Shown here in pieces: positions 6,413 to 34,172 of a DNA stretch of 64,000 bases (within the stretch, counting starts at the first letter, position 1; every line of letters starts with the position of its first letter). The notes beneath the pieces are model-generated. The model was not told where the DNA came from and ran no database searches. It was given only the letters and a program-made list of their open reading frames with translations. The stretch is from the NCBI GenBank assembly GCA_947085195.1, contig CAMTVM010000004.1, positions 1,624 through 65,623 on the forward strand. Direction: 5' to 3'. Source of the stretch: an uncultured Chloroflexota bacterium (GTDB taxonomy: Bacteria > Chloroflexota > Limnocylindria > Limnocylindrales > CSP1-4). The position numbers were made by a program, and so were the translations under genes.

Positions 6413-7270
6413 TTGCATCCTGTCGTCGAGCGCGAGCAGCTCTCCCCGAACGTCGTCCGCCTCGTCGTCGAGGCTCCCCGGATCGCGAAGGTCCGGCGTC
6501 CCGGCCAGTTCGTCATCGTCCGGAAGGGTCCGGGCGCGGAGCGCATCCCGCTGACGATCGCCGACAACGATCCCGGGGCCGGGACCATCACCCTGATGAT
6601 CCAGGCCGTCGGCGCCAGCACCACCGAGCTCTGCGCGCTGCAGGTGGGCGAGGCGATCACCGATGTCGCCGGCCCCCTCGGCCAGGAGACGGAGCTGATC
6701 AAGACCGGGCACGCCGTGTGCGTGGGCGGCGGCGTGGGTACCGCGGTGATCCTGCCGATTGCCCGCGAGCTCGCCCGGCGCGGCGTCCACGTGACCAGCG
6801 TCATCGGCGGCCGCTCGAAGGAATGGGTCATCCTGGAAGCCGAGCTACGGGGCTGCGGCGACGTGGTCGTCTGCACCGACGACGGCAGTTACGGCCGCCA
6901 CGGCTTCGTGACCCAGGCCCTCAAGGACCTGCTGGACGCGGGCGGCGTGGATGCCGTCTACGCGGTCGGCCCGGTGCCGATGATGAGCGCCGTGTCCGAG
7001 ATGACCAGGCCCTACGACGTCGAGACCACCGTCTCGCTCAACGCGATCATGGTCGACGGCACCGGGATGTGCGGCGGCTGCCGCGTGACGATCGGTGGCG
7101 AGACCAAGTACGCCTGCGTTGACGGCCCGGAGTTCGACGCCCACAAGGTGAACTTCCAGGAGCTGGCAGACCGCCTGACCACCTATCGCTCCTTCGAGCA
7201 GGCGGCCCTCCAGCGCCAGAAGGACGACGAGGCCAAAGGCGCCTGTGCGACCACAGAGGTGAAGGCATGA
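6413..7270 (+). CDS. nfnA: NADH-dependent reduced ferredoxin:NADP+ oxidoreductase small subunit / sulfide dehydrogenase beta (PyrK-like FAD + [2Fe-2S])
   Basis: Track ORF. HPVVEREQLSPNVVRLVVEAPRIAKVRRPGQFVIVR and C-terminal CGGCRV match PyrK/SudB/NfnA family. Probable TTG start with GCGAGG 7 nt upstream. Confidence 0.8.
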   Translation: MHPVVEREQLSPNVVRLVVEAPRIAKVRRPGQFVIVRKGPGAERIPLTIADNDPGAGTITLMIQAVGASTTELCALQVGEAITDVAGPLGQETELIKTGHAVCVGGGVGTAVILPIARELARRGVHVTSVIGGRSKEWVILEAELRGCGDVVVCTDDGSYGRHGFVTQALKDLLDAGGVDAVYAVGPVPMMSAVSEMTRPYDVETTVSLNAIMVDGTGMCGGCRVTIGGETKYACVDGPEFDAHKVNFQELADRLTTYRSFEQAALQRQKDDEAKGACATTEVKA

Positions 7271-8781
7271 CCGAGCCCGCGTCCCCGGTGCCGGCGGCAG
7301 ATTCCGAGGGCGAACCCGCCAGGCCCGCGCTCAGCAACAAGGAGCGGATGACCATCGGCCGGGTATCGATGCCCGAACAGGAAGGCGAGATCCGCGCCCG
7401 GAACTTCGGCGAGGTCAACCTCGGCCTCACCTACGAGCTGGCGCTGCTGGAGGCGGAGCGCTGCATCCAGTGTCCCAAGCCGTTCTGCGTGGATGGCTGC
7501 CCGGTCCGGGTCGACATCCCGCGCTTCATCAAGTTCCTCCGCGAGGGCGACCTGCCCGCCGCCGCGGAGAGCCTCCTCGGCGACAACGCGCTCCCCTGTG
7601 TCACCGGCCGCGTGTGCCCCCAGGAGATCCAGTGCGAGGCCGTGTGTATCCGTACCAAGAAGGGCGACTCGGTCGCCATCGGCTATCTCGAGCGATTCGT
7701 GGCGGACTGGGCCCAGCAGAACCCCGACGCCCTGCCCAAGGTTGAACCCGGCAGCACGGGCAAGCGGATCGGGATCGTCGGTTCCGGCCCGGCCGGCCTC
7801 ACCGCCGCCGGTGAGCTCGCCCGCAAGGGCCACGACGTCACCGTGTTCGAGGCGTTCCACGCTCCGGGCGGCGTCCTGATCTACGGCATCCCGGAGTTCC
7901 GGCTGCCCAAGGACATCGTCCAGGCCGAGGTGGACCGGCTGGTCCGCGAAGGCGTGAAGATCCAGGTCGACGCGATCATCGGCCGCACCTACACCGTGCC
8001 GGAGCTGCGCGAGGAGTACGACGCGCTGTTCCTGGCGGTCGGCGCGGGTCTACCGGTGTTCATGAACGTCCCAGGCGAGAACCTCAAGGGTGTGTACTCG
8101 GCCAACGAGTACCTGACCCGCGTCAACCTCATGGGTGCCTGGAGCGCGGACTCCAGGACCCCCATCCTCCACGGCCAGCGAGTCGTGGTGGTCGGCGGCG
8201 GCAACGTGGCGATGGACTCCGTCCGGACCGCGAAGCGACTGGGTGCTGCCGAGGCGACCATCGTCTACCGCCGCTCCGCAGACGAGCTTCCCGCCCGGAA
8301 GGAAGAGGTCCACCACGCGATCGACGAGGGCGTCGTATTCGACTACCTCACCGCCCCGGTCGAGGTCATCGGCGACGAGAACCGGTGGGTCACGGGCCTG
8401 AAGTGCGTGAAGATGGAGCTGGGTGAGCCGGACGGGAGCGGCCGCCGACGGCCGATCAGGATCGAGGGCTCCGAGTTCACGATCGACTGCGATCTCGTGG
8501 TCGTGGCCATCGGCACCAAGGCCAACCCGCTGCTCACCGGCAGTGCGCCGGAGCTCAGCGTCAACGAGTATGGCTACCTCGTAGCCGACGAGTACGGCAT
8601 GACCAGCATGCCCGGCGTGTTCGCGGGCGGCGACATCGTGCGTGGCGCCGCCACGGTCATCCTCGCCATGGGCGACGGCAAGCGGTCAGCCTTCGCGATC
8701 GACTCCTGGCTCAACGGCGTGTGGCCGCCGGTCGGGGCCGACAAGGAGACGAAGCCGAAGGAGCCCGCCGCCGCCGGCTGA
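7267..8781 (+). CDS. nfnB: NfnB / glutamate synthase small-chain (GltD) family oxidoreductase with ferredoxin-like N-terminus
   Basis: Track ORF. CIQCPKPFCVDGCPV, GIVGSGPAGL and VVVVGGGNVAMD motifs. ATGA overlap with nfnA stop. Confidence 0.85.
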   Translation: MTEPASPVPAADSEGEPARPALSNKERMTIGRVSMPEQEGEIRARNFGEVNLGLTYELALLEAERCIQCPKPFCVDGCPVRVDIPRFIKFLREGDLPAAAESLLGDNALPCVTGRVCPQEIQCEAVCIRTKKGDSVAIGYLERFVADWAQQNPDALPKVEPGSTGKRIGIVGSGPAGLTAAGELARKGHDVTVFEAFHAPGGVLIYGIPEFRLPKDIVQAEVDRLVREGVKIQVDAIIGRTYTVPELREEYDALFLAVGAGLPVFMNVPGENLKGVYSANEYLTRVNLMGAWSADSRTPILHGQRVVVVGGGNVAMDSVRTAKRLGAAEATIVYRRSADELPARKEEVHHAIDEGVVFDYLTAPVEVIGDENRWVTGLKCVKMELGEPDGSGRRRPIRIEGSEFTIDCDLVVVAIGTKANPLLTGSAPELSVNEYGYLVADEYGMTSMPGVFAGGDIVRGAATVILAMGDGKRSAFAIDSWLNGVWPPVGADKETKPKEPAAAG

Positions 8782-8854
8782 CCGGAGATGGAGGCCGCCG
8801 TGCCCGCGGTCGTGGTCCGGGATTCCCTCGCCCGGCGGCCTCGCTTCAGCAGAA

Positions 8855-8870
8855 TGTGCCAATAGGCACT
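8855..8870. promoter_or_regulatory. AT-rich 16-bp dyad TGTGCCAATAGGCACT (CRP/FNR-type half sites TGTGC-N6-GCACT) embedded between CCGGCGG/CCGCCGG arms
   Basis: Seen directly; only AT-rich patch in a very GC-rich intergenic region upstream of aor. Confidence 0.3.
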
Positions 8871-8968
8871 GCATCGAACCGCCGGACACCCGGACCATCG
8901 GTGGAACCGAGTGCGCCCGTGCAGGCGGCACCCGCCCGCGGCCGGTGACACTCGTGCATCGGCGACCC

Positions 8969-9000
8969 GGCGCGCGCGGTCGCGCTTATCCGCGCGCGCC
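8969..9000 (+). other. perfect 11-bp GC stem (GGCGCGCGCGG / CCGCGCGCGCC) with 10-nt loop, 60 nt upstream of aor start; nfnAB terminator or aor leader hairpin
   Basis: Seen directly; no U-tract follows. Confidence 0.35.
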
Positions 9001-9058
9001 GGGCGGCAGACCGGAGCCACGCGAGCAACGAGCGGACGAGAAAGGACACAGGCCGGGC

Positions 9059-10786
9059 ATGGACAAGATCCTGCGCATCGACATGGGCGCCGAGGACGGG
9101 CCCACGACGACGGTCGAGCCGGTCGGTCAGTACGCCGGCCTGGGCGGCCGCGCCATGACATCGCTCGTGGTCAGCAAGGAGGTCGACCCTCTCTGTCATC
9201 CCCTGAGCGCTGCGAACAAGCTCGTGTTCGCTCCGGGCCTGCTCACCGGCTCCGCCGCCTCGACCAGCGGCCGGATCTCGGTCGGCTGCAAGAGCCCGCT
9301 GACGGGCGGCATCAAGGAGGCGAACGCAGGCGGCCAGGCGGGCCAGGCGCTGGCGCGGCTCGGCTACGCCGCGGTCATCGTCGAGGGCGAGCCTGCCGGC
9401 GACGACCTGTGGACCGTCAAGATCGACAAAGGGGGCGTCTCGTTCAAGGTCGACAACAGCCTCAGGATGACCGGTACCTATGCCACGGTCGAGAAGCTCG
9501 TCGGCGATTACGGATCCAAGGTCACCTTCATGGTCATCGGCCAGGCCGGTGAGATGAAGCTCGCCGGTGCCTCCATCGCGGCCTGCGACCGGGAGCTGCG
9601 CCCCACCCGGCACATGGGCCGCGGCGGCGTCGGCGCCGTCATGGGCTCCAAGAAGATCAAGGCATTCATCCTCGACGAAACCGGCACGTCGCTGCGCCAG
9701 CCGCTGCACCCGGAGCGCTTCAAGGCCGCGGCGAAGATCTTCAACGACGGCCTCCGCAGCCACGGCGTCTCGGGGCAGGGTCTGCCCCTGTTCGGCACCA
9801 ACGTCCTGACCAATATCCTCAACGAGGTCGGCGGCTACCCCACCCGCAACTTCAGCTCGGGCCAGTTCGAGGGCGCGACGAAGATCAGCGGCGAGACCCA
9901 GGCCGCGACGATGACCGAGCGCGGCGGCCTGGCGACCCACGCCTGCCACCGTGGCTGCATCATCCAATGCTCCGGCATCTACAACGACGCCACGGGCAAG
10001 TACGTCAGCAAGCAGGCCGAATACGAGACCATCTGGTCGCACGGCGGCCACTGCGGCATCTCCGACCTCGACATCATCCAGCAGCTCGACCGCATGGACG
10101 ACGACTTCGGCCTCGACACGATCGAGACCGGCGTCGCGATCGGCGTCGCGATGGAGGGCGGCCTGCTGCCCTTCGGCGATGGCGAGGGCGCCATCCGCGT
10201 CCTTGCGGAAGTCGGCCAGGGCACCCCGCTCGGCCGGATCATCGGAAGCGGTGCCGCGGCCACGGGCAGGGCATTCGGCGTCTCGCGCGTCCCGGTGGTC
10301 AAGAACCAGGCCCTTCCGGCGTACGATCCGCGTGCCGTCCAGGGCATCGGCGTCACGTATGCGACCACCCCGATGGGCGCCGACCACACGGCCGGCTACG
10401 CGGTGACGGCCAACGTGCTCAAGGTCGGCGGGTTCGTCGACCCGCTCCAGACCGAGGGCCAGGTCGACCTGTCGCGCGCCCTCCAGATCAACACGGCCGT
10501 CATCGACTCCAGCGGGATGTGCCTGTTCGTGGCGTTTCCGGTCATCGACCAGCCGGAGACGTTCACCGCCTTCGTTGAGCTCGTCAACAGCTTCTATGGC
10601 ATCGAGGCCGACGTCACGGCCTTCGGCCAGCAGATCCTGTCGGCCGAGCGTGATTTCAACGCCCGCGCCGGGTTCACGGCGATCGACGATCGCCTGCCGC
10701 GCTTCTTCGAGACGGAGCAACTCCCCCCGCACAACGTCACCTTCAATGTGACGCACGAGGAGCTGGACTCGGTCTTCAACTGGTAG
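9059..10786 (+). CDS. aor: tungsten-containing aldehyde:ferredoxin oxidoreductase (AOR family)
   Basis: C-terminal 575 aa of track ORF 8642..10786. MDKILRIDMGAEDG...AFILD... ; AOR_N and AOR C-terminal pterin-binding features. Start at ATG 9059 with GAAAGGA upstream; earlier ORF part is out-of-context junk. Confidence 0.85.
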   Translation: MDKILRIDMGAEDGPTTTVEPVGQYAGLGGRAMTSLVVSKEVDPLCHPLSAANKLVFAPGLLTGSAASTSGRISVGCKSPLTGGIKEANAGGQAGQALARLGYAAVIVEGEPAGDDLWTVKIDKGGVSFKVDNSLRMTGTYATVEKLVGDYGSKVTFMVIGQAGEMKLAGASIAACDRELRPTRHMGRGGVGAVMGSKKIKAFILDETGTSLRQPLHPERFKAAAKIFNDGLRSHGVSGQGLPLFGTNVLTNILNEVGGYPTRNFSSGQFEGATKISGETQAATMTERGGLATHACHRGCIIQCSGIYNDATGKYVSKQAEYETIWSHGGHCGISDLDIIQQLDRMDDDFGLDTIETGVAIGVAMEGGLLPFGDGEGAIRVLAEVGQGTPLGRIIGSGAAATGRAFGVSRVPVVKNQALPAYDPRAVQGIGVTYATTPMGADHTAGYAVTANVLKVGGFVDPLQTEGQVDLSRALQINTAVIDSSGMCLFVAFPVIDQPETFTAFVELVNSFYGIEADVTAFGQQILSAERDFNARAGFTAIDDRLPRFFETEQLPPHNVTFNVTHEELDSVFNW

Positions 10787-10802
10787 TCGCCGTCACCGCC
10801 CG

Positions 10803-12149
10803 ATGGGGCCGCGCCTGGAGCGGCCGATGAGCGTCCCGCTGCCCGTGCCCGACCCGGTGCCGGCTCATCGGCGTGCTCACCCGTCCAAGCTGTTCGTCGA
10901 GGTCACGACGCGTTGCAATCTCCGCTGTGCGATGTGCGTCAAGTACGCGCCGGGGCAGGGCCTGGTGGAAGGCGACATGACCGAGGAGACGTTCGAGCGC
11001 CTCTCGCCCGCCTTTCCGCTCCTCGAGTCGCTGGTGCTCAACGGCATCGGCGAGCCGCTCCTCCACCGGGGCCTCGAGGGGTTCATCGCGCGCGCGAAGG
11101 CGAGCCTGCCGGCCGATGCCTGGGTCGGCTTCCAGACCAACGGCCAGCTCATCGGCGCCCGCCGCGCGGAGGCGCTCGTGGCGGCTGGCGTGGACCGGAT
11201 CGCGATCTCCGCGGACGCCGTGAGCCCCGAGCGGCTCCGCTCGATCCACGGCGGGGCCCGCCTGGCACCCATCGAGGCCGGCGCGGGGCGCCTCCACGAC
11301 AGTGCCGCGGCCCTCGGGCGGCGACTCTCCCTGGGCCTCGAGTTCGTCGCGATGCGCGACAACCTCGACCAGCTCCCGCTGCTCGTGCGCTGGGCGGCCC
11401 GTCATCGGTTCGAGTTCATCATCGTCAGCCACCTCCTGGCCTACGAGCCGTCGATGGCGGAGCACGCCGCATTCAGCCCCACGTCCGACCGGGCGCTGGC
11501 GGTGTACCGGACCTGGCGCTCCCGGGCAGAGGCTGACGGGATCGACCTCGGTCGCTACCTCGCGTCGCGCCACCGCTTCGCGCCGCCGAAGGAGGATGAG
11601 CGCGCGATCCGGCTGGTGAAGGAGATGGTCGCTGACGCCAGGGATCGCGGCATCTCGCTCAGGATCGCGGACCTGCTCCGCTTCGACGAGGCGTGTCTCG
11701 AGGCTACCGAGGCCGCCTTCACCGAGGCCTCGTCGCTCGCCGCCGAGCTGGGCGTCGAGCTCCGGTTGCCCTCGACCGTACCCACCCAGGTCCGGCGCTG
11801 CGAGTTCGTGGAGGAGGGGTCCGCGTTCGTGTCCTGGGACGGCGGCCTCCACCCGTGCTACTTCCTGTGGCACCGGTTCGACTGCTACCTCGGGGGGATC
11901 GCGAAGACCGTCCGGCCGCGGTCGTTCGGGAATGTCGACGACGCCGGGATCCTCGAGATCTGGAACGGGCAGCCGTGGCGGACGTTCCGGGGCGACGTCA
12001 CCCGATATGACTTTCCGTTCTGCTACGACTGCAACCTCGCGATGTGCGACTACGTCCAGGACGGCGACTTCGAGCAGGACTGTCACCTGGTCCAGGTGCC
12101 GTGTGCGGCGTGCCTGTGGTGCACGGGGCCGTTCCAGTGCCTGCGCTGA
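10803..12149 (+). CDS. radical SAM protein with C-terminal Cys-rich SPASM/twitch-like domain
   Basis: Track ORF. N-terminal CNLRCAMC (CxxxCxxC) and 10 Cys in last 120 aa incl. CYDCNLAMC ... CAAC. 17 nt downstream of aor. Confidence 0.75.
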   Translation: MGPRLERPMSVPLPVPDPVPAHRRAHPSKLFVEVTTRCNLRCAMCVKYAPGQGLVEGDMTEETFERLSPAFPLLESLVLNGIGEPLLHRGLEGFIARAKASLPADAWVGFQTNGQLIGARRAEALVAAGVDRIAISADAVSPERLRSIHGGARLAPIEAGAGRLHDSAAALGRRLSLGLEFVAMRDNLDQLPLLVRWAARHRFEFIIVSHLLAYEPSMAEHAAFSPTSDRALAVYRTWRSRAEADGIDLGRYLASRHRFAPPKEDERAIRLVKEMVADARDRGISLRIADLLRFDEACLEATEAAFTEASSLAAELGVELRLPSTVPTQVRRCEFVEEGSAFVSWDGGLHPCYFLWHRFDCYLGGIAKTVRPRSFGNVDDAGILEIWNGQPWRTFRGDVTRYDFPFCYDCNLAMCDYVQDGDFEQDCHLVQVPCAACLWCTGPFQCLR

Positions 12150-12233
12150 ACGACGGCGCGGGATGCCGCGGGGGGCGGGAGCGGCGTCGTGCCGGTTCCG
12201 GGGTTCGCCGGGTCGCGTGACCCTCGGCGGCCG

Positions 12234-13406
12234 TCAGGCCACCGCGCCCGCGAGAGAGCGCAGTGCCGACAGCGTCTGGTCGATGTCGTCGGTGGTCGTG
12301 AACGCGCCCGGCGACAGGCGCACCGTGCCTCGCGGCCAGGTTCCGACCGTGCGGTGCGCAAGGGGCGCGCACTGGAGTCCCGCCCGGACAGCGATCCGGA
12401 ACGAGCTGTCGAGCGCCGCAGCGAGGTCGACTGGCTCCCAGCCCACGAGCGTGATCGAGGTCGTCGCGACCTGGCGTGCGGCATCGCCCGTGCCGTGGAC
12501 CGCCAGGCCGGGGATCGTGCGCAGGCCGTCGAGGAGCCGCGCGGTCAGCACCTGCTCGTGGGCACGGATCGCGGCGATGCCTCGCTCCGCGAGGTATGCC
12601 AGGGCGGCGCCCAGCCCGGCGATGCCGACCGTGTTGAGCGTGCCGACCTCGAGTGCCTCGGGCAGCTCCTCGGGCTGGCGGTCCTCCTCGGATCGGGTCC
12701 CGGTCCCACCCTGGCGGAGGGGACGCAGCCGGATGCCCGGTCCGACATACAGGCCGCCGGTTCCCGTCGGCCCCAGCAGGCCCTTGTGGCCCGGGAGCGC
12801 GACCAGGTCGAGTCCCAGCGCGGCGACGTCGAGGGGCAGGACACCCGCAGTCTGCGCGGCGTCGACGAGCACCAGCGCTCCATGGTCGTGCGCGAGCCGG
12901 GCCGCCTCGGCGATCGGGAGGATCGTGCCGGTGACGTTGCTCGCGTGGGTCAGGGCCACGAGACGGGCCGGCCCGGCACACAGCGCGCGCTCGAGGTCGC
13001 CGGGGTCGAGCGTGCCGTCCGGCGCGCACGGGACCCGCGTGACCAGGACGCCGGCGTCGCCCAGCGCGACCAGGGGCCTTGCCACGGCGTTGTGCTCGAC
13101 GCTGGTCGTGATGACCCTGTCCCCTGCCGCGAGCAGGCCCCACAGCGCCAGGTTCAGGGCGTCCGTCGCGTTGGCGGTGAAGACGACCCGAGACGGGTCG
13201 GGCGCCCCGAGGAGTGTCGCGAGACCGCGGCGAGTGGCCGTCACGACCGCCTGCGCCCCGAGTGCCAGTGCGTGGCCGGACCGGCCGGGGTTGCCCGCCG
13301 TGGTCGCCAGGAAGCCGCCCATCGCCTCGATCACGCCCGGGGCCTTGGGGAACGAGGTGGCGGCATTGTCGAGGTAGATCACGCGCCCGTCGTCAGGTTC
13401 CGACAT
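12234..13406 (-). CDS. cysteine desulfurase / class V aminotransferase (IscS/NifS/CsdA-like)
   Basis: Track ORF 12234..13469(-). IYLDNAATSFP near N-terminus; PLP-lysine context ALPGHKGLLGPTGTGG. Start at ATG 13406 (MSEPDDGRV), overlaps moeB stop by 14 nt; alternative GTG 13382. Confidence 0.8.
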   Translation of the reverse strand: MSEPDDGRVIYLDNAATSFPKAPGVIEAMGGFLATTAGNPGRSGHALALGAQAVVTATRRGLATLLGAPDPSRVVFTANATDALNLALWGLLAAGDRVITTSVEHNAVARPLVALGDAGVLVTRVPCAPDGTLDPGDLERALCAGPARLVALTHASNVTGTILPIAEAARLAHDHGALVLVDAAQTAGVLPLDVAALGLDLVALPGHKGLLGPTGTGGLYVGPGIRLRPLRQGGTGTRSEEDRQPEELPEALEVGTLNTVGIAGLGAALAYLAERGIAAIRAHEQVLTARLLDGLRTIPGLAVHGTGDAARQVATTSITLVGWEPVDLAAALDSSFRIAVRAGLQCAPLAHRTVGTWPRGTVRLSPGAFTTTDDIDQTLSALRSLAGAVA

Positions 13407-14433
13407 AGCGCGCGTACAGCGAGCGGGCGACCGCGACGTCGTCGGTGCCCTTGATGATCGCGCGGCCATCGGCGAACACGGTCATCTCGTGACCGTCGAC
13501 CACCGACCGGAGCAGGTAGTCGCTCGAGGTCACGGTCCCGGTGCCTGCGAGCTTGAGGGCCAGGACCCGGAGGTCGAGCCGAACGGCCCGACCCGGGCTC
13601 ACCTGGACGGCGTCGCGACCGCACAGCGTCGCCGTCCGGCTCGTGACCCTGGCCTCGAGATACTCGAAGCGGCGCTCGCCGCAGCACGGGCAGTCCGGTC
13701 GCCGGGGTACGCCCTCGGTGTGGAGGTGGTCGTTCGTCCACACGTCGAACGCGGTAACGCCGCGGCTGAGGTGCTCGCGGTCGCCGACGAGGAGCTTCAC
13801 TGTCTCGGTCCACTGCATCGCGGCGACGGTCACGACGGTCGACGCAAGCACGCCAGCGGTTTCGCAGGTCTCCATCGTGCCCGCCGGCTGGGGCGTCGGA
13901 AACAGGCACCGGAAGCACGCCGTGTCGCCGGGCAGAACCGTCATCGACATCCCGGTCGAGCCGACCGCGCCACCGTAGACCCAGGGAATGCCTGCTTTCA
14001 CGCAGGCGTCGTTGAGCAGGTAGCGCGTCTCGAGGTTGTCCGTGCCGTCGACCACGACGTCGGCCCGGGCGACCAGCGCCTCCACGTTGGCGGGGGTGAC
14101 ATCCGCGACGAGCGCCTCGACATCGACTCCGGCGTTGATCCGGCCGACGGCTTCGGCCGCCGCGACCGCCTTGGGCGACCCGGCCGCAGCGTCGGCCTCG
14201 TCGTACAACAGCTGGCGCTGGAGGTTGCTGAGTTCCACGAAGTCGCGGTCGACGACCACCAGGTGGCCCACCCCGGAACGTGCCAGCAGGTCAATCACCG
14301 AACAACCCAGGGCGCCACACCCGACCACGAGCACACGGCCCGCCGCGAGTCGCGCCTGTCCCTCGGTGCCGATGCCCCAGAACCGGGCCTGGCGCGAGTA
14401 GCGGTCCCCGGTCGCGGGGGTGCTGGGTGCCAC
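13393..14433 (-). CDS. moeB: ThiF/MoeB-family E1-like adenylyltransferase with CPCC zinc motif and 85-aa C-terminal extension of unknown fold
   Basis: Track ORF 13393..14628(-). DRYSRQARFWGIG... VLVVGCGALGC (Rossmann GxGxxG), DPDCPCCG. GTG start at 14433 inferred from family N-terminus. Confidence 0.75.
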   Translation of the reverse strand: MAPSTPATGDRYSRQARFWGIGTEGQARLAAGRVLVVGCGALGCSVIDLLARSGVGHLVVVDRDFVELSNLQRQLLYDEADAAAGSPKAVAAAEAVGRINAGVDVEALVADVTPANVEALVARADVVVDGTDNLETRYLLNDACVKAGIPWVYGGAVGSTGMSMTVLPGDTACFRCLFPTPQPAGTMETCETAGVLASTVVTVAAMQWTETVKLLVGDREHLSRGVTAFDVWTNDHLHTEGVPRRPDCPCCGERRFEYLEARVTSRTATLCGRDAVQVSPGRAVRLDLRVLALKLAGTGTVTSSDYLLRSVVDGHEMTVFADGRAIIKGTDDVAVARSLYARYVGT

Positions 14434-14708
14434 GTGGTGTCCTCTGCATCGATCGGGCGCACGACGCGTCCGCCTGGATCCGGCCCGTCGGCGGCTCGGA
14501 AGATCACACTCGCCGCGTGCCGAACCCGCCGGGTGCAGCACCGGGGACGCGCATCGGCTCGACGCCTCCCATTCCGCGGCACGACGCCCCGACCGGGTAG
14601 CGCCGTTCGGCCCGTTCCGCGCGGACATCCGGCCGGGGCAGCGCGGCCGCCCCGGTGTCCCGAGTCGTCGAGCACCGGAACGGGCGAGCGCAGCTCAACC
14701 GCTGCCGC

Positions 14709-14939
14709 TCACCCACCGCCGATCACCGGGAAGACCGCCAGGACGCTGCCGTCAGCGAGTCGGTCGTCAAACTCCACGTTGCGGCCGTTGACCATCATCA
14801 CCCCGACCTCGGGGCGCGGGATCTCGAGCTCGTCGACGATCTCGCCGACCGTCGGCGATTCCGGGTAGGCGCGCGTCTCGATGGCAAACCGGCCGCGCTG
14901 GAAGCTGGCGAACAGCTTGATCGTCAGCTGCACCGACAC
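14709..14939 (-). CDS. moaD: MoaD/ThiS-family sulfur-carrier protein ending in Gly-Gly
   Basis: In track ORF 14709..15056(-). VSVQLTIKLFASFQRGR...VLAVFPVIGGG; diglycine C-terminus, ~76 aa from GTG 14939. Confidence 0.7.
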   Translation of the reverse strand: MSVQLTIKLFASFQRGRFAIETRAYPESPTVGEIVDELEIPRPEVGVMMVNGRNVEFDDRLADGSVLAVFPVIGGG

Positions 14940-14967
14940 CTGCGCGTGGCCTCCGTCCCGGTCGCCG

Positions 14968-15504
14968 TCAGGCGGCGACACGTAGCAGGATCTCACGATC
15001 CAGGGCGATGCGCTCCAGGTCCGGATCCGGGCCCAGGATCCTGGCCGCCTCGTCATGGGCCAGCACGATCCCGCGGCGCAGGATCGAGGGGCCGACGCCC
15101 GGGATGATGAGGTTGAACAGCTTCACTCGGATGGTGGGGGCCGACTCTTCGTCGCGGCCACCCCCGTGGCCCTCGTGCCAGCTGACCTGGGCGCGCATCG
15201 CCGAGTAGTAGCTGGACCGGCGAAGCGTGGCCCCGACGAGCCCCGGCATCGCCGCCGAGAGCGTCAGGGTGGACCCGGGATGGAGCATGGCGCGGTCCAG
15301 GTCATCGACGACCATCGAGTCCACGAACACGGTCGCGATCACGTGGCGGACATAGTCGGGCTCGATCGCCAGGTCAACCGAGAGGAAGTCTGCGACCGAG
15401 CGCGGACCGGCGAGCGAGACGACGACGCCGCGCTGGAACAGCGCGCCCAGATCGCTCCAGCGCACGCGGTCGGCGGAGATGGTGAGGGTGACGGGATCGG
15501 TCAT
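14968..15504 (-). CDS. hypothetical protein (178 aa) between SHOCT-membrane gene and moaD
   Basis: C-terminal part of track ORF 14968..15888(-). MTDPVTLTISADRVRWSDLGALFQRGVVV... I recognise no family; upstream ORF part is Arg/Pro junk so start set at ATG 15504. Confidence 0.45.
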   Translation of the reverse strand: MTDPVTLTISADRVRWSDLGALFQRGVVVSLAGPRSVADFLSVDLAIEPDYVRHVIATVFVDSMVVDDLDRAMLHPGSTLTLSAAMPGLVGATLRRSSYYSAMRAQVSWHEGHGGGRDEESAPTIRVKLFNLIIPGVGPSILRRGIVLAHDEAARILGPDPDLERIALDREILLRVAA

Positions 15505-15748: not shown

Positions 15749-16399
15749 TCACGAGCGCGCCTCCAGCTCGGCGATGATCGATGCCTTGGCGGTCTCGAAA
15801 TCCTCCGGTGTCGGCAGGCCACGGTCCCGCATGTCGGCCAGGCGCTCCAGCCGGTCGAGCAGTGCCTGCCCGCGCTGCGGCGGGCCACCCGGCGGCCGGG
15901 CCGTGGCCTGAGCCGGCGTGGCTCCAGCCGTGAAGCCGGCGCGCATCGCGACGGCCACGATTACGATCGGCGTGAGAGCCATCAGCTCGAACAGGATCCC
16001 CGGGATCAACCAGCCCCGGACGATCTCGTCCGCCTCGGGCGGCGGGTTGATGATCCCGTGATCGAGGAAGTTCCAGCCGAGGGCCCCGAACAGGCCTGAC
16101 CACCCGACGAGGACCGCGGCGATGGCCCACCGAGCGCCCACGCGGCTGCCGCAGGCCATCGCGATCCCGCCGAACAGGACCACGCCGAAGATGCCGAGCA
16201 TCATCGCCGGAGCCGTGCCGTCCGGACACGACTGCGCCGAGACGAAAGGCCCACCGTCCACACAGAATCCGCCGACGTCCATGACCGCCCGCATCGCGTG
16301 GAACACCAGGGTGACGCACATGGTCAGCCCGCCGAGTCCGATCGCCAATCCCAGGACCGCGCCCAATCCCGGGTCCGGCCGCCGTGCCCCGAAGCCCAT
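15749..16399 (-). CDS. membrane protein with C-terminal SHOCT domain
   Basis: Track ORF 15749..16441(-). Several hydrophobic segments; C-terminal LLDRLERLADMRDRGLPTPEDFETAKASIIAEL is a typical SHOCT helix pair. Confidence 0.55.
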   Translation of the reverse strand: MGFGARRPDPGLGAVLGLAIGLGGLTMCVTLVFHAMRAVMDVGGFCVDGGPFVSAQSCPDGTAPAMMLGIFGVVLFGGIAMACGSRVGARWAIAAVLVGWSGLFGALGWNFLDHGIINPPPEADEIVRGWLIPGILFELMALTPIVIVAVAMRAGFTAGATPAQATARPPGGPPQRGQALLDRLERLADMRDRGLPTPEDFETAKASIIAELEARS

Positions 16400-16450
16400 G
16401 GCCACCCTCCTGCCCTCGCCGGCCGGGTGGCCGGATGTCACAGGCGCAGG

Positions 16451-17862: not shown

Positions 17863-18027
17863 GGTGGAGTCTCCGCTGATACGCGACCGTGGCATGGCCG
17901 CGCGGGACCCCGATCCTACCAGAGCCGCTGACGGCCCCCCAGGGAAGCGAGTCCGCGTGGAGTCGGCGACGCGCAGGGTCCGGCGGCCGCTGCCGCGCTG
18001 ACGTCGGGATCGCGCGCACCCTCCCGC

Positions 18028-18825
18028 TCATCGGCCGGTCTGGAACCGGTAGCCGAGCCCGTACTCGGTCGTGATGAACGTGCGACCCGGCGTCGCCGCG
18101 GCCAGCTTGGTCCGCAGGTTGCGCATGGTCACCCTCAGGAGCTGGATCTCGTCGCCGTATGTCGGCCCCCAGACCATGCGCAGCAGCTCGCCGTGCGTCA
18201 TGAGCTCGTCGGCGCGGCGGGCGAGGGACACGAGAAGCCGGAACTCGGTCGGGGTCAGGTGGACCTCCTGGGCGGAGCCCATCACCCGGTGGCCGCGCAG
18301 CTCGATCCGCAGCCCGGGATGCTCGATGACGTCGTCCGGGCGCGCCTCGTGCAGGTGGACCCGGCGGAACGCGGCCTGGATCCGTGCGACCAGCTCCGGG
18401 AAGCTCACGGGCTTCGTGAGGTAGTCGTCTGCGCCGGCGACGAGGCCGTGCACCACGTCCGACTCGGCGTCGAGCGCGGTGACCATGAGGATCGGTACGG
18501 TGCTCACGCTGCGGATCCACTCCGCGACCTGCCATCCGTCGAGGCCCGGGAGGTTGAGGTCGAGGAGCACGAGGTCCGGCTCCTCCTCCGCGAAGCGGCG
18601 CATGACCTCGTGGGCATCGCCCGCCAACGCGGTGCGCCAGCCGTGGCGATTGACCCACAGCTCGACGAGCTCCCGGAACTCGAGCTCGTCCTCGACGACG
18701 AGGACGAGCTCGCCGTTTCCCGGCACCGGGCGGGACGGGACGGGCGGCACGACGATCCGCCGGCCGTCCGGATGCCGCGTGCGTCCGGAATCGCCGTCGC
18801 CGCGCGATTCGCCGGACGCCGTCAC
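18028..18825 (-). CDS. OmpR/PhoB-family response regulator
   Basis: C-terminal 266 aa of track ORF 18028..19659(-). [14 protein letters not shown]...[12 protein letters not shown]...LTKP and winged-helix LTPTEFRLL...GYRF. GTGA overlap with kinase stop. Confidence 0.85.
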
Positions 18826-20492
18826 GACGCCTCCCCGAGCGCCTCGGGCGGAGCGGCCGGCAGGCTGAACGACACCGCGCTCCCGCCGCCCTCCGCCTCC
18901 ACCCAGATCCGCCCCCCGTGTGCCTCGATGAGGCGCCTGCAGACGTATAGCCCGAGGCCCGTCCCGGGCGTCCTGCCGTCCCGCGCGTTCCGGCCGCGGT
19001 AGAAGCGGTCGAACACGTGCGGCCGCTCCTCGGGCGGCACGCCCGGTCCGGTGTCGTGCACGGTGACGACGACGGCGCCCCGTTCGCCCCGCGCCGTCAC
19101 CGTGATCGGGCCGCCGTCGCCGTACTTGCGCGCGTTGTCCACGAGGTTCGCAAGGACGTGGCCGATCCGGAGCGGGTCGATCGCGACCGACGGCAGGTCC
19201 GGCGGGATGGCGACCCGGACCGGGCGCGCGCCGGGCGACTCCGCGAGGTCGTCGGCCAGCCGGGCGACGACCGACGGCAGGTGCACGACGGAGCGCTGGA
19301 GTAACGGGCCGGTGCTCTCGAAGCGAGTGAGCTCGAGCAGCTCGTCGACGAGCTCGGCCAGGCGCCCGGCCGCGTGGCCAATCCGCTCCACGGAGCGGCG
19401 CTGCGCATCCGCGTCCAGGTCGAGCGCGAGCAGGCTGTCCACGTAGCCGGAGATGAGCGCTAGCGGCGTCCGGAGCTCGTGGGAGACGGCGGCGAGGAAG
19501 CTCGCCCGGAGCTCCTCGACGGCGATCTCGGCGCGCGTGTCGCGCAGCACGACGACGGCGCCCCGCTCGGCGCCCGGCATGGCCGAGTACGACGCGGCGA
19601 CGGGGATCGCCGTGCCGTCGCGGCCGACCACGACGTGCTCGCACGCGATCGGCGCCCACGGGTGCTCCATCGCCTCCTCGAACCGGCAGCGCGGACCGCA
19701 GCGCAGCGAGCCACGGGCGGCGGTGCCCGGTCGCCCGTCCTCCCCTGGTTCGCCGGCGGTCGCGCCAGGCACGTCGTCAGGCGCGCAGCCGAGCACCTCG
19801 CGGCACGACCGGCTGGAGGGCACGACGGCCGTGCCGCCGAGCAGCGACATGGCGGCCCGGTTCACGCGCACGACCCGGCATCCCTCGTCCACCGCCACGA
19901 TCCCGTCGTTCGCGCCGTCGAGGATCGCCGCGAGCAGTGCCTGCTCCCCGGCCAGCGCGTGGCGGAGCTGGGCCGCCTGGAAGGCGATCGCCAGTTCGTG
20001 GCGTACCAGCGCGAGGAGCCGGACGCCCTCGGCCGGCAGGTCGTCGCCCGGCGGTGGCTGGAACGCGAGGTAGCCGACAAGCCGGCTGTCGAGGCTCCGC
20101 TCCCCGAGCCCGCGGCGCTCGTCGAGCGCGACGCCCCGCCACCCCGCGGCGCGGGTCCACGCGGCGGCGGTGTCCGCGCCGGCGAGCTCCTCCGGGAGCT
20201 GCGGGACGGCCTCGCCGGCCGGTTCACCGCCCGCGGGATCGTCTCCGACGACCGCGACGAGCCGCATCGAGCGCTCGCCGGTGGTGGACAGCCACAGGGC
20301 GCCCGCGGCCGCATCGGTCACCCGCACGAGCTCGGTCACCACCGAGGTGGCAAGCGCCCGCAGGTCCCCGCCGAGCGCGAGCAGCTGGCTCAGCTGGTAC
20401 TGCGCGAACACGGTATCCGCCTCGCGCTGCGCGTCGGCGAGGGGCGTGCGCCGGTCGCGGTCAGGACCGGCGACGCGATCTGCGGCCGTCAT
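18822..20492 (-). CDS. cytoplasmic sensor histidine kinase with GAF/PAS-like N-terminal region
   Basis: Track ORF 18822..20765(-). HisKA H-box [10 protein letters not shown], HATPase motifs [19 protein letters not shown]; no TM segments. Start at MTAADRV (ATG 20492) overlapping dhaL stop. Confidence 0.8.
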
Positions 20493-21229
20493 GCGCGCCG
20501 CCGCGCTGCGGGCTCGAGCATCGCCCGGATGAGAAGGAAGCACGAGGTCGCTCCGGGGTCCTGGTGCCCGCGGGAGCGCTCGCCCAGGCGCAGCGCGAGG
20601 CCCCGTCGCGCGATCATCGGCGTCGTCGCCCGCATGCCCGCGCGCGCCGCCGCCGCGGCGCGCCGGAGCGCATACACGGCGTCGCGGCCATCCGCCACGG
20701 CAGAGGCATAGGCGTCCGCGGCCGGCCGCAGCGCGTCGAAGATCGTCTTGTCGCCGAGCCGGCACCGCCCGCGGCGGGCGACCCCATGCGCGGCGGCATC
20801 GAGCGCCCGGGCGATCCCGGCGAGCGTGACCACCGGCCCTTCCGGGATGGCGAGGCCCGCCTCGGTGAACGCGGTCCCGTACAGCGAGCCGCCCGCGCCC
20901 CCGACGTTGGCCACGACGAGCGAGCCCAGCCGCCGCAGGAGCTCCCCGACATCGTCAGCGGCCGCGTCCGGGCGCGCCGAACCGTCGGGCGCCGCAAGCG
21001 CACGCACGGCGTGCCCGAACCCGACGGTCATGTTCTCGCCGTGGTCGCCGTCCCCGAGCGCGGCGTCCAGCCGGTCCAGCAGCCGCCGGTGGCGGACCAG
21101 CAACCGCTCCGCGCGCGCGACGAAGGCCAGCACCTCGACCGCGGTGACGGCGCGCTCGGCGATGTCGTCGGTTACCCGCGGGCCGACGTCCTGCGCACGG
21201 TCGCGGTCCACGTCGATGCGCCTGCTCAT
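20489..21229 (-). CDS. dhaL: DhaL-domain protein (ADP-binding subunit of dihydroxyacetone kinase), paralog 1, first gene of dhaL-HK-RR operon
   Basis: C-terminal 247 aa of track ORF 20489..21889(-). LDAALGDGDHGENM ... [10 protein letters not shown]-like [16 protein letters not shown]. Confidence 0.8.
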   Translation of the reverse strand: MSRRIDVDRDRAQDVGPRVTDDIAERAVTAVEVLAFVARAERLLVRHRRLLDRLDAALGDGDHGENMTVGFGHAVRALAAPDGSARPDAAADDVGELLRRLGSLVVANVGGAGGSLYGTAFTEAGLAIPEGPVVTLAGIARALDAAAHGVARRGRCRLGDKTIFDALRPAADAYASAVADGRDAVYALRRAAAAARAGMRATTPMIARRGLALRLGERSRGHQDPGATSCFLLIRAMLEPAARRRA

Positions 21230-21312
21230 GGCCTCCGCTAGTGTATGGTGCGGGACCCCCGCCGTCGGCGGCGATCGCCCGGGGGCAGCCCGCAGCCAGG
21301 AGGGGCGCGCAG

Positions 21313-21717
21313 ATGGTGGGGCTTGTCCTCGTTGCGCACAGCGCCGAGCTCGTCCGCGGCCTTGCGGCGATGGTCCGCCAGGCGGCGCCTGCCGTGCCGG
21401 TCGAGGGCGCCGGCGGGCTGAGCCACGGGCGCCTGGGGACGAGCGCACCGGACGTGGCCGCGGCGCTCGCGCGCGCGCTCGCCGCTGGCGAGGACGGCGT
21501 GCTCGTGTTCCTCGATCTCGGCAGCGCTGGCATGGCGGTGGAGCTCGCGCTCGAGACCCTCGAGCCCGGCGACCGGAGGCGGATCCGCGTGACCGACGCG
21601 CCGATCGTCGAGGGCGCGGTGCACGCCGCGATCGCGGCCGCGGCGGGGGACGACCTCGACGCGGTCGTGGCCGCGGCGGACCTCGGCGGCCGCGCCCCGA
21701 AACGGCCCGCCGGCTGA
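21313..21717 (+). CDS. dhaM: DhaM-like phosphotransfer protein (EIIA-mannose-family domain only)
   Basis: In track ORF 21241..21717(+). MVGLVLVAHSAELVRGL...; AGGAGG SD before ATG 21313. Confidence 0.65.
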   Translation: MVGLVLVAHSAELVRGLAAMVRQAAPAVPVEGAGGLSHGRLGTSAPDVAAALARALAAGEDGVLVFLDLGSAGMAVELALETLEPGDRRRIRVTDAPIVEGAVHAAIAAAAGDDLDAVVAAADLGGRAPKRPAG

Positions 21718-22397
21718 TGGACGCTCCGGCCGTCGGGGTACGCGGGGCGCTCGGCGCGCGGGTGGTCGAGCGCTGGCTGCGCCTGGCGGCCGCGGCGATC
21801 CACGAACAACGCGACTGGCTGACCGCGCTCGACGCGGCCATCGGGGACGGAGACCACGGGATCAACCTCGATCGCGGGTTCGCGGGCATCCTCGCCGACC
21901 TCGACGACCCCGACCGCGCCGGAGCCCGCGCATCGTCGGGGACGCTGCTCGTCGCCGCCGGGCGCCGCGTGCTCGGGCTCGTCGGCGGCGCCAGCGGCGC
22001 GCTCTACGGCCGCGCGCTCATCAGGGCCGGAGAGCGCCTCGGCGACGATGCATGGGGCGTGGAGGCCGCCGTCGCGGGGTTTGACGCGGCTCTCGACGCG
22101 GTCGTGTCGCTCGGCCACGCCACGGTTGGCGACAAGACGCTGGTCGATGCGCTCGCCCCGGCACGCGACGCGCTGCGGGTCGCGGGACCAGGGATGGACC
22201 TCCCGACCGCGCTGCGCCGGGCGGCCGACGCCGCGGAAGGCGGGGCGCTGGCGACCGTCCCCCTCGTCGCGCGGAAGGGCCGGGCGAGCTACCTCGGCGA
22301 GCGGTCTGCGGGCCACCAGGATCCCGGGGCCGCGTCGACGGCGATGCTCGTCCGGTGCCTCGCGGACGCGGCCGCGGCCGAGGTCGCCGGCCCCTGA
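21717..22397 (+). CDS. dhaL: DhaL paralog 2
   Basis: C-terminal 226 aa of track ORF 20748..22397(+). LDAAIGDGDHGINLDRGF ... [21 protein letters not shown]. Overlaps dhaM stop. Confidence 0.8.
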   Translation: MDAPAVGVRGALGARVVERWLRLAAAAIHEQRDWLTALDAAIGDGDHGINLDRGFAGILADLDDPDRAGARASSGTLLVAAGRRVLGLVGGASGALYGRALIRAGERLGDDAWGVEAAVAGFDAALDAVVSLGHATVGDKTLVDALAPARDALRVAGPGMDLPTALRRAADAAEGGALATVPLVARKGRASYLGERSAGHQDPGAASTAMLVRCLADAAAAEVAGP

Positions 22398-23434: not shown

Positions 23435-23521
23435 CTCGCACGGCCACGGGGCGCGCCCGGTCACCGGGTGACGGCGCGCCCCGGACCCCGAGCCCGGCGT
23501 CCGTCGGCCACAGGAGGAACG

Positions 23522-24520: not shown

Positions 24521-24569
24521 CCGTCCGCCCAACACCATCACCTCCTACTGGCCGAAAGGACACACGGGC

Positions 24570-25211: not shown

Positions 25212-25242
25212 CCATGGCCTCGGGCGAACACGGGAGTGCAAC

Positions 25243-32963: not shown

Positions 32964-32964
32964 C

Positions 32965-34171: not shown

Positions 34172-34172
34172 C

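What the first reader, a model, noticed from the sequence alone, without database searches (positions are those of the whole stretch)
9059..12149. Tungsten-type AOR followed 17 nt later by a radical-SAM enzyme carrying a SPASM/twitch-like Cys-rich C-terminus
An AOR-adjacent radical-SAM gene recalls the cmo gene next to aor in Pyrococcus furiosus, where it was proposed to modify the pterin cofactor. Here the partner has a SPASM-like tail (CYDCNLAMC ... CAAC; 10 Cys in 120 aa). Such tails are usually found in protein/peptide-modifying maturases, not in MoaA. It could be an AOR- or cofactor-maturation enzyme not yet characterised. AOR itself is uncommon in high-GC Actinobacteria-like genomes.
Basis: partly seen in the sequence, partly recalled or inferred. 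Interest (0 to 1): 0.65.

Follow-up and report, generated by a model that had tools for sequence, protein, structure and literature searches.

The report
Tungsten AOR with Cmo-type radical-SAM partner
The window carries a tungsten-type aldehyde oxidoreductase gene followed by a radical-SAM/SPASM gene from an already catalogued "putative metalloenzyme maturase" family, the bacterial counterpart of the Pyrococcus aor-cmo pair, so it is an ordinary member of a known module whose biochemical function has never been tested.

Summary
AOR lies at 9059-10786 (575 aa) and a radical-SAM/SPASM gene at 10803-12149.

The radical-SAM protein fits NCBIfam TIGR04311, "radical SAM/SPASM family putative metalloenzyme maturase", over its full length (549 bits, cutoff 400). 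Its only other strong match is TIGR04317, "tungsten cofactor oxidoreductase radical SAM maturase". I fetched the P. furiosus aor locus. Cmo there is a TIGR04317 member and carries the same SPASM tail, so the tail does not set this gene apart from cmo.

The host is Chloroflexota (Limnocylindria-like), not Actinobacteria.

- **From the radical-SAM side:** across 80 species-level loci, a close AOR orthologue lies within 10 kb in 45. That is 74% of the 61 loci with enough flank. It is usually on the same strand and within 3.5 kb. A MoaD-like sulfur carrier, a MoeB-like E1 and sometimes a cysteine desulfurase accompany it. All three are present in the window, convergent to the pair.
- **From the AOR side:** only about 10% of AOR-orthologue metagenome loci carry the radical-SAM gene nearby.

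The best reading is an accessory tungsten-cofactor/AOR maturation enzyme. Its substrate is unknown. The papers I read do no more than propose a maturation role for it. It is a known kind with an old open question and adds nothing new. Interest is low to moderate.

The parts
9059..10786 (+). Tungsten-type aldehyde:ferredoxin oxidoreductase. It is the large subunit only (a 'Class I WOR'), 575 aa.
   Evidence: Pfam AFOR_N plus AFOR_C. The best solved relatives are 9mqx_D (E 5e-82), P. furiosus AOR 1aor (3e-73) and AorB 8c0z (5e-72). Orthologues 64-97% identical lie next to the radical-SAM gene in 45 loci. The Glu and His equivalents of P. furiosus E313 and H448 are kept, as are the cluster cysteines C296, C300, C304 and C488.
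10803..12149 (+). Radical-SAM/SPASM protein of the Cmo type, NCBIfam TIGR04311. The probable true start is ATG 10827 (440 aa).
   Evidence: TIGR04311 scores 549.5 bits (cutoff 400) over the full length. TIGR04317 scores 219 bits and MoaA 66.7 bits. Pfam finds Radical_SAM plus SPASM. Invariant features are CX3CX2C (C38, C42, C45) and C333, C352, C407, C410, C415, C427, C434, C437 and C446. The AF2 model is a radical-SAM fold with mean pLDDT 78.8.
12234..13469 (-). Cysteine desulfurase of the class-V aminotransferase family, EF2568/SclA-type subfamily. It is convergent to the radical-SAM gene.
   Evidence: Pfam Aminotran_5, E 2.4e-84. TIGR01977 scores 423.7 bits (cutoff 377). Orthologues lie in the same cluster in L005, L007, L008, L021, L031, L036 and L062.
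13393..14628 (-). MoeB/ThiF-type E1 adenylyltransferase. The probable start is GTG 14433.
   Evidence: Pfam ThiF, E 7.4e-76. PRK12475 MoeB/ThiF scores 362 bits, aligned from residue 75. GAGGA followed by an in-frame GTG. A MoeB-like gene is present in 22 of 45 AOR-linked loci.
14709..15056 (-). MoaD/ThiS-like sulfur-carrier protein ('WorX'). The probable start is GTG 14939 (76 aa). The C-terminus reads ...VIGGG.
   Evidence: Pfam ThiS (41.7 bits) and Ub-Mut7C. Translation ends in Gly-Gly-Gly. GGAGG lies 8 nt upstream of GTG 14939. A MoaD-like gene is present in 33 of 45 AOR-linked loci and sits between aor and cmo in P. furiosus.
6413..8781 (+). NfnA/SudB-like (6413-7270) and NfnB/GltD-like (7267-8781) flavoprotein pair upstream of AOR. 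They are a possible electron-transfer partner and are not part of the conserved module.
   Evidence: PRK06222 scores 375.8 bits and TIGR01316/PRK12778 score 563-687 bits. Synteny with AOR is seen only in the closest relatives L001-L003. A 277-nt gap separates them from AOR.

Best explanation
The locus is a Chloroflexota copy of a widespread module. The module consists of a single-subunit tungsten AOR, a Cmo-type radical-SAM/SPASM enzyme, and a private sulfur relay made of a MoaD-like carrier, a MoeB-like E1 and a cysteine desulfurase.

**Shown**
- Family membership: TIGR04311, sister to the TIGR04317 family that contains P. furiosus Cmo.
- The CX3CX2C motif plus a SPASM domain. Nine cysteines of that domain are shared with Cmo, enough for two fully ligated auxiliary [4Fe-4S] clusters.
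- Conserved linkage of the radical-SAM gene to AOR, MoaD-like and MoeB-like genes.

**Inferred**
- The sulfur relay thiocarboxylates the MoaD-like protein to build the dithiolene of the pyranopterin destined for AOR.
- The radical-SAM enzyme cleaves SAM reductively and uses the 5'-deoxyadenosyl radical for a hydrogen-abstraction step on a cofactor-pathway substrate. The auxiliary clusters would bind the substrate or carry electrons.
- The substrate is most likely a pterin or tungsten-cofactor intermediate, or the cofactor as it is loaded into apo-AOR.
- Because most AOR orthologue loci lack the radical-SAM gene nearby, it is probably an accessory or conditionally needed factor, or it acts in trans. 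It is probably not an obligatory subunit-like partner.
For: - **Family assignment:** TIGR04311 at 549.5 bits over the full length, TIGR04317 as second hit at 219 bits, and all other families at 67 bits or less.
- **P. furiosus comparison:** the gene order is AOR, ThiS/MoaD-like (82 aa), Radical_SAM+SPASM (377 aa). That protein is TIGR04317 at 505 bits and TIGR04311 at 237 bits. BLASTP against the window protein gives 28% identity over the core and 35% over the SPASM tail, with the Cys pattern aligned.
- **Linkage from the radical-SAM side:** 278 species genomes encode a relative. In the 80 best loci, an AOR orthologue (64-97% identical) is present in 45. Forty are on the same strand and 44 lie within 3.5 kb. 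MoaD-like genes are in 33, MoeB-like in 22 and a cysteine desulfurase in 6.
- **Breadth:** linkage is spread over all major clades of the radical-SAM tree. Two genomes carry two copies, each with its own AOR.
[quoted passage not shown] Deleting tk1065 lowers molybdopterin, AOR activity and FOR activity in sulfur-poor medium (PMC11323500). AOR-adjacent MoaD-like genes raise the specific activity of recombinant AOR (PMC9295118). The ThiS-like 'WorX' and ThiF next to Class I WORs are assigned to pterin biosynthesis (PMC13328260).
Against: - No experiment on any member of TIGR04311 or TIGR04317 turned up in the library searches.
- Sixteen of 61 informative radical-SAM loci have no AOR, MoaD-like or MoeB-like gene within 10 kb.
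- Among metagenome loci of the same AOR clade with at least 3 kb on both sides, only 2 of 21 carry the radical-SAM gene. Eleven carry a MoaD-like gene and 9 a MoeB-like gene.
- A. aromaticum AOR matures without a radical-SAM gene in its operon.
- No MoaE, MoaA, MoaC or MoeA gene is a conserved neighbour.
- The fold search returns only generic radical-SAM relatives, with TM about 0.45. The Cys-rich tail is modelled at pLDDT below 50. Structure therefore gives no clue to the substrate.
Confidence: 0.6

Rival explanations
1. It is a protein-modifying SPASM maturase. The radical-SAM enzyme would install a post-translational modification on the AOR polypeptide or on the adjacent MoaD-like protein. 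Precedents are anSME acting on sulfatases and QhpD acting on an amine dehydrogenase subunit.
For: SPASM proteins are very often peptide or protein maturases, and the fold hits include SuiB, SkfB, CteB, PqqE and anSME. The small MoaD-like protein is the most constant neighbour. The AOR clade has strongly conserved extra cysteines (C46, C77, C332) and a conserved C-terminal ...VFNW tail.
Against: The papers read describe no modified residue in an AOR, but I did not inspect the solved structures (1aor, 8c0z, 9mqx, 9g7j, 9q1t). No AOR residue distinguishes radical-SAM-linked orthologues from unlinked ones. All conserved cysteines are equally conserved in both sets. No short precursor-type ORF is a conserved neighbour.
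Confidence: 0.15
2. It is a metabolic partner rather than a maturase. The radical-SAM enzyme would be an anaerobic dehydrogenase or lyase, like BtrN or DesII, working in the same catabolic pathway as AOR. It might, for example, produce the aldehyde that AOR oxidises.
For: The best fold and profile hits include small-molecule enzymes: DesII, BlsE and BtrN. The gene is co-directional and tightly spaced with AOR.
Against: The module is conserved with sulfur-carrier and E1 genes, not with catabolic genes. It is found next to both a broad-specificity archaeal AOR and a distant bacterial clade. The AOR clade usually occurs without it.
Confidence: 0.1
3. It has no dedicated link to AOR. TIGR04311 would be a general metalloenzyme or metalloid-related radical-SAM family, and adjacency to AOR in some lineages would reflect co-regulation or inheritance of a gene block.
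For: About 26% of informative loci lack AOR. In several Desulfobacterota and Nitrospirota loci, the neighbours are ArsR and a large SAM-methyltransferase protein. The curated name does not specify tungsten.
Against: AOR linkage is seen in Chloroflexota, Myxococcota, Acidobacteriota, Nitrospirota, Desulfobacterota, Betaproteobacteria and Spirochaetota/Leptospirales. The sister family shows it in Archaea. Varied gene orders argue against simple block inheritance.
Confidence: 0.1
4. It is a MoaA isoenzyme, that is, a GTP 3',8-cyclase dedicated to the tungsten cofactor.
For: MoaA is the best match outside the two maturase families (66.7 bits). It is also among the best solved relatives for the N-terminal core.
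Against: The score is far below the MoaA cutoff (284 bits). The match covers only the shared radical-SAM core (residues 29-205). The C-terminus is SPASM, with no MoaA C-terminal domain hit.
Confidence: 0.03

Closest known systems
NCBIfam TIGR04311, 'radical SAM/SPASM family putative metalloenzyme maturase' (rSAM_Geo_metal)
   Same: Full-length match above the curated cutoff (549.5 against 400 bits). It has the CX3CX2C motif, the SPASM domain and the helical insert between them. Public homologues up to 91% identical already carry this name.
   Different: Nothing found. The family itself has no experimentally defined function, and its members are not all next to AOR.
P. furiosus Cmo / T. kodakarensis TK1064 (NCBIfam TIGR04317, 'tungsten cofactor oxidoreductase radical SAM maturase')
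   Same: It lies next to a tungsten AOR together with a MoaD/ThiS-like gene. It has the same Radical_SAM plus SPASM architecture. Nine C-terminal cysteines align between the two proteins.
   Different: The score is below the TIGR04317 cutoff (219 against 380 bits), with only 28-35% identity. The window protein is about 70 aa longer, with a helical insert at about residues 225-315, and has extra cysteines C361 and C440. In the window, the MoaD-like gene is 2.5 kb away on the opposite strand rather than between the two genes.
MoaA (GTP 3',8-cyclase)
   Same: The N-terminal radical-SAM core is similar, and the genomic context is pterin-cofactor related.
   Different: The C-terminal domain is SPASM, not the MoaA type. 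The HMM score is 66.7 against a cutoff of 284.
AOR-adjacent MoaD-like maturation genes: A. aromaticum aorDE, and WorX/ThiF of Class I WORs
   Same: The window cluster holds a MoaD-like protein ending in GG plus a MoeB/ThiF E1 beside a single-subunit AOR.
   Different: Those described operons contain no radical-SAM gene. The 2026 WOR classification paper does not mention one.

Membership tests
NCBIfam TIGR04311 (rSAM_Geo_metal) | Whole-protein HMM score at or above the curated cutoff (400 bits), aligned end to end | tested here: met
   549.5 bits, E 5.5e-165, protein residues 26-447 against profile positions 1-423 of 423
NCBIfam TIGR04311 (rSAM_Geo_metal) | Radical-SAM CX3CX2C cluster motif | tested here: met
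   C38, C42 and C45 are invariant in 55 homologues
NCBIfam TIGR04311 (rSAM_Geo_metal) | C-terminal SPASM auxiliary-cluster domain | tested here: met
   PF13186 scores 48.3 bits (cutoff 21.5) over residues 333-411. The motif is CX13GX4C, then CX2CX4C and further invariant cysteines.
NCBIfam TIGR04317 (W_rSAM_matur; Cmo) | Whole-protein HMM score at or above the curated cutoff (380 bits) | tested here: not met
   219.2 bits in two stretches. P. furiosus Cmo scores 505.2 bits.
NCBIfam TIGR04317 (W_rSAM_matur; Cmo) | Encoded next to an AOR-family tungsten enzyme | tested here: met
   The gene starts 16-40 nt downstream of AOR. An AOR orthologue is present in 45 of 80 related loci.
MoaA (TIGR02666) | HMM score at or above 284 bits and a MoaA-type C-terminal domain | tested here: not met
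   66.7 bits, core only (residues 29-205). Pfam gives no MoaA C-terminal hit.
AOR family (tungsten aldehyde:ferredoxin oxidoreductase, Class I WOR) | AFOR_N plus AFOR_C domains, with the [4Fe-4S] cysteines and catalytic Glu and His conserved | tested here: met
   for the domains. Alignment with P. furiosus AOR shows EYE(T/S)VW, the His of G(A/G)xH, and C296, C300, C304 and C488.
AOR family (tungsten aldehyde:ferredoxin oxidoreductase, Class I WOR) | Tungsten rather than molybdenum in the bis-pyranopterin site | not testable with these tools
   This needs metal analysis of the purified enzyme. No tupABC or modABC genes were seen in the window.
SPASM peptide (RiPP) maturases | An adjacent short precursor-peptide gene conserved with the radical-SAM gene | tested here: not met
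   Clustering of ORFs of at least 60 aa (at least 80 aa in the AOR-less loci) around 39 AOR-linked and 16 AOR-less loci found no conserved small neighbour other than the MoaD-like protein. Peptides shorter than that were not examined.

The most novel reading that the evidence does not exclude
The Cmo-type radical-SAM/SPASM enzyme, working with the dedicated MoaD-like thiocarboxylate relay, catalyses a so far undescribed radical step in pyranopterin chemistry. It might be an AOR-specific modification or an assembly step of the non-nucleotide bis-pterin tungsten cofactor. It might instead deliver an extra sulfur or selenium ligand, given that the cysteine desulfurase is of the SclA-like subfamily. 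Either would define a separate branch of Mo/W-cofactor biosynthesis.
Probability: 0.15. Interest if true: 0.75.

Novelty: already known. Interest (0 to 1): 0.3.

Why it matters
What the cmo-type radical-SAM enzyme does for tungsten AORs has been open since the gene was noticed next to P. furiosus aor. The papers I read go no further than saying it "might be involved in maturation" (PMC11323500). The 2026 classification of tungsten oxidoreductases does not mention it (PMC13328260).

Tungsten AORs are of biotechnological interest for acid-to-aldehyde reduction, and recombinant activity depends on maturation genes (PMC9295118). Knowing whether this enzyme is needed would therefore have practical value.

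This locus adds no new handle on the question. It is one more standard example.

The comparative numbers obtained here do sharpen the question. The radical-SAM gene depends on AOR context far more than AOR depends on it: about 74% of radical-SAM loci have AOR nearby, against about 10% the other way. The module always travels with a MoaD-like/MoeB-like sulfur relay.

Tried and rejected
- **Moco/Tuco riboswitch upstream of AOR:** no Rfam match in the window at gathering score, and none in 8600-9200 at E up to 1.
- **Promoter and terminator consensus scan, 8500-12500:** nothing found. This is uninformative at 70% GC.
- **Structure route to a substrate:**
  - The AF2 model is usable for the core (pLDDT 78.8), but residues 403-448 are below 50.
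  - Foldseek against the PDB gave only generic radical-SAM, SPASM and twitch hits at TM about 0.35-0.49.
  - A profile search of PDB sequences matched only the N-terminal core.
- **An AOR residue specific to radical-SAM-linked orthologues, as a possible modification target:** none found. Differences were conservative and all conserved cysteines were shared.
- **A common neighbour in AOR-less loci:** none, apart from ArsR plus a methyltransferase protein in a few.
- **A. aromaticum aorDE as radical-SAM counterparts:** rejected, because both are MoaD-like.
- **Conserved Moco genes (moaA, moaC, moaE, moeA) in the module:** not found. Other recurrent neighbours were an ABC ATPase and a sigma-54 activator.
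- **Literature searches for the TIGR accession numbers, and for radical-SAM enzymes with tungsten AOR:** no experimental study found.
- **Actinobacterial origin:** rejected.
Full report
**Observation**

The window is about 72% G+C. A third-position GC filter picks out a co-directional gene run:
- 6413-7270 and 7267-8781
- a 277-nt gap
- 9059-10786
- 10803-12149

Three convergent genes follow on the minus strand, at 12234-13469, 13393-14628 and 14709-15056.

The 9059-10786 product (575 aa) has Pfam AFOR_N and AFOR_C. Its best solved relatives are canonical AORs: 9mqx_D, P. furiosus 1aor and A. aromaticum AorB 8c0z.

The 10803-12149 product has Radical_SAM plus SPASM (PF13186, 48.3 bits against a cutoff of 21.5) and no MoaA C-terminal hit.

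- The gap to ATG 10803 is 16 nt.
- ATG 10827, with GGAG 7 nt upstream and matching the 440-aa homologues, is the likelier start.
- The last 120 residues hold 11 Cys.

**What the radical-SAM protein is**

Against NCBIfam it matches TIGR04311, "radical SAM/SPASM family putative metalloenzyme maturase", end to end at 549.5 bits (cutoff 400). The second hit is TIGR04317, "tungsten cofactor oxidoreductase radical SAM maturase", at 219 bits, which is below its cutoff of 380. Everything else, MoaA included, scores 67 bits or less and covers only the shared N-terminal core.

More than 1,400 homologues exist. Those up to 91% identical already carry the "putative metalloenzyme maturase" name in public sources.

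In 55 homologues the following are invariant:
- the CX3CX2C motif (C38, C42, C45)
- C333-X13-G-X4-C352
- C407-X2-C410-X4-C415
- C427, C434, C437 and C446

C440 is nearly invariant in that set, and C361 is nearly invariant in the 14-sequence alignment.

**Testing the cmo analogy directly**

I rebuilt the P. furiosus AOR sequence from the PDB alignment, found the genomic protein (P0121) and fetched its locus (L081). The gene order there is:
- AOR
- a ThiS/MoaD-like protein of 82 aa
- a 377-aa Radical_SAM+SPASM protein
- AdoHcy hydrolase

The 377-aa protein is the gene adjacent to aor, that is, cmo. It is a TIGR04317 member at 505 bits and gives TIGR04311 as its second hit at 237 bits. BLASTP against the window protein gives 28% identity over the core and 35% over the Cys-rich tail. 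Nine tail cysteines align.

So Cmo is itself a SPASM protein. The window gene belongs to the sister family, and the two families are each other's only strong second hit. The main structural difference is a helical insert of about 70-80 residues in the TIGR04311 type. Nine shared cysteines are enough for two fully ligated auxiliary clusters. No third cluster need be invoked.

**Host**

The closest loci are Chloroflexota MAGs labelled Candidatus Limnocylindrales or uncultured Chloroflexia. Their radical-SAM proteins are 89-92% identical and their AORs 95-97% identical. Nucleotide identity is 89-91%, with synteny from about 1.8 to 18 kb and again from 37.5 kb. The Actinobacteria guess is not supported.

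**Co-occurrence, from the radical-SAM side**

A scan of one genome per species found 278 genomes with a relative, and the best 80 loci were kept. tblastn with the window proteins gave the following:
- 45 loci have an AOR orthologue that is 64-97% identical.
- 40 of those are on the same strand.
- 36 have AOR upstream on the same strand.
- 44 lie within 3.5 kb, with a median distance of 1.1 kb.
- A MoaD-like gene is present in 33, a MoeB-like gene in 22 and a cysteine desulfurase in 6.

Recurrent gene orders are:
- AOR, MoaD, MoeB, radical SAM
- AOR, MoaD, radical SAM, MoeB, cysteine desulfurase

Of the 35 loci without AOR, 19 are too truncated to judge. Sixteen have at least 4 kb on both sides, or 7 kb upstream in the case of L018. 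About 74% of the 61 informative loci are therefore AOR-linked.

A rough neighbour-joining tree shows the linkage in every major clade. AOR-less loci group in Desulfobacteraceae, Desulfuromonadales/Geobacter, and some Nitrospirota and Acidobacteriota sub-clades. Two genomes carry two copies, each with its own AOR.

AOR-less loci share no common neighbour. The exception is ArsR plus a large protein with a C-terminal SAM-methyltransferase domain, seen in a few.

**Co-occurrence, from the AOR side**

A metagenome scan with an alignment of this AOR clade returned 80 loci at 63-84% identity. The radical-SAM gene is nearby in only 9 of the 80.

| Metagenome AOR loci | Count | With radical SAM | With MoaD-like | With MoeB-like |
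|---|---|---|---|---|
| At least 3 kb on both sides | 21 | 2 | 11 | 9 |
| At least 4 kb on both sides | 20 | 2 | not counted | not counted |

The dependence is asymmetric. The radical-SAM gene usually sits with AOR, but this AOR clade usually lacks it in cis. Whether it is then encoded elsewhere in those genomes could not be tested.

AOR orthologues with and without an adjacent radical-SAM gene show no distinguishing residue. All conserved cysteines are shared.

**The rest of the module in the window**

- **12234-13469:** a cysteine desulfurase of the TIGR01977 (EF2568/SclA-type) subfamily, 423.7 bits against a cutoff of 377.
- **13393-14628:** a MoeB/ThiF E1.
- **14709-15056:** a ThiS/MoaD-like protein ending ...VIGGG, probably starting at GTG 14939.

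No other Mo/W-cofactor or tungstate-transport gene was seen in the window. None is a conserved neighbour in related loci. There is no Moco riboswitch.

**Literature**

- The T. kodakarensis paper notes that tk1065 (MoaD-like) lies between AOR tk1066 and radical-SAM tk1064. [quoted passage not shown] It shows that deleting tk1065 reduces pterin, AOR activity and FOR activity under sulfur-poor conditions. tk1064 itself was not tested (PMC11323500).
- A. aromaticum aorDE are MoaD-like genes, and adding them to the expression plasmid raised recombinant AOR activity (PMC6365974, PMC9295118).
- The 2026 WOR classification assigns ThiS-like "WorX" and ThiF next to Class I WORs to pterin biosynthesis. 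It does not mention a radical-SAM gene (PMC13328260).
- Searches for the TIGR accession numbers, or for an experimental study of such an enzyme, found nothing.

**Mechanism**

What is shown:
- family membership
- the cluster-binding motifs
- the conserved module

What is inferred:
- The cysteine desulfurase, the E1 and the MoaD-like thiocarboxylate relay supply dithiolene sulfur for the pterin destined for AOR.
- The radical-SAM enzyme performs a 5'-deoxyadenosyl-radical step on a cofactor intermediate, or during cofactor loading. Its two auxiliary clusters would bind substrate or transfer electrons.

The structure prediction (pLDDT 78.8, tail below 50) and the fold search (generic hits such as DesII, BlsE, SuiB, MoaA, PqqE, BtrN and anSME, at TM about 0.45) do not discriminate between substrates.

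Rivals, all less supported by context but none excluded:
- protein modification of AOR or of the MoaD-like protein
- a metabolic partner enzyme
- no dedicated link to AOR
- a MoaA isoenzyme

**Verdict**

The feature is real and correctly recognised. It is a standard member of an already curated family and the counterpart of the classical aor-cmo pair. The SPASM tail is the family norm. The taxonomic remark is wrong. The function remains an old, testable open question, and this locus adds nothing specific to it.

**Caveats**

- Neighbour detection rests on tblastn thresholds and on loci cut at contig ends.
- The tree is a simple distance tree.

Noticed in passing
window 17922-37553: A block of about 19.6 kb has no counterpart in the otherwise syntenic Chloroflexota loci L002 and L003. 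It holds a PAS histidine kinase, a MIP glycerol facilitator, DhaK/DhaL/DhaM, glycerol kinase, GlpA/B/C-like anaerobic glycerol-3-phosphate dehydrogenase genes, a PanE-like gene and two PlsY genes. Window 17922 maps to L002 15678 and window 37553 to L002 15778. This looks like an insertion or deletion of a glycerol-utilisation island.
   Followed up: partly
window 6413-8781: An NfnA/SudB-like and NfnB/GltD-like flavoprotein pair sits directly upstream of AOR, and no polyferredoxin (WorS) gene was seen among the genes scanned next to AOR. The pairing is conserved only in L001-L003. It could couple AOR-reduced ferredoxin to NAD(P). Nfn and glutamate-synthase terms were absent from the text of the 2026 WOR classification paper.
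   Followed up: partly
L079 6746-7288 and 7945-9786; also L023 and L058 (ArsR also in L027 and L053): Some TIGR04311 radical-SAM genes without AOR lie next to an ArsR-family regulator and a protein of about 613 aa with a C-terminal Methyltransf_31 domain. That domain family includes arsenite methyltransferases (from my own knowledge). This hints at a different role, possibly metalloid-related, for that sub-clade.
   Followed up: partly
window 12161-13642: The cysteine desulfurase and the 3' end of the MoeB-like gene are missing from the closest relatives L002 and L003. They are present in L001, L005, L007 and L008, so the sulfur-relay part of the module is variable even within the lineage.
   Followed up: partly
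window 9059-10786 (AOR residues 293-304): This AOR clade has a CX3CX3C motif (C296, C300, C304) with a 5-residue insert where P. furiosus AOR has CX2CX3C. In the alignment, the first P. furiosus ligand Cys aligns to Thr. C46, C77 and C332 are also clade-conserved, and the function of these three cysteines is unknown.
   Followed up: no
window 12234-13469: The cysteine desulfurase belongs to the TIGR01977 subfamily and also matches the selenocysteine lyase SclA model at 359.6 bits, below its cutoff of 525. Whether it handles sulfur only, or also selenium, is open.
   Followed up: no
window 15749-16441 (-): A 230-aa ORF lies between the ThrRS-like gene and the MoaD-like gene. It has good GC3 but no Pfam or NCBIfam match, and tblastn with it found matches only in L002 and L003 (56-59% identity) among the 80 genome loci.
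   Followed up: no
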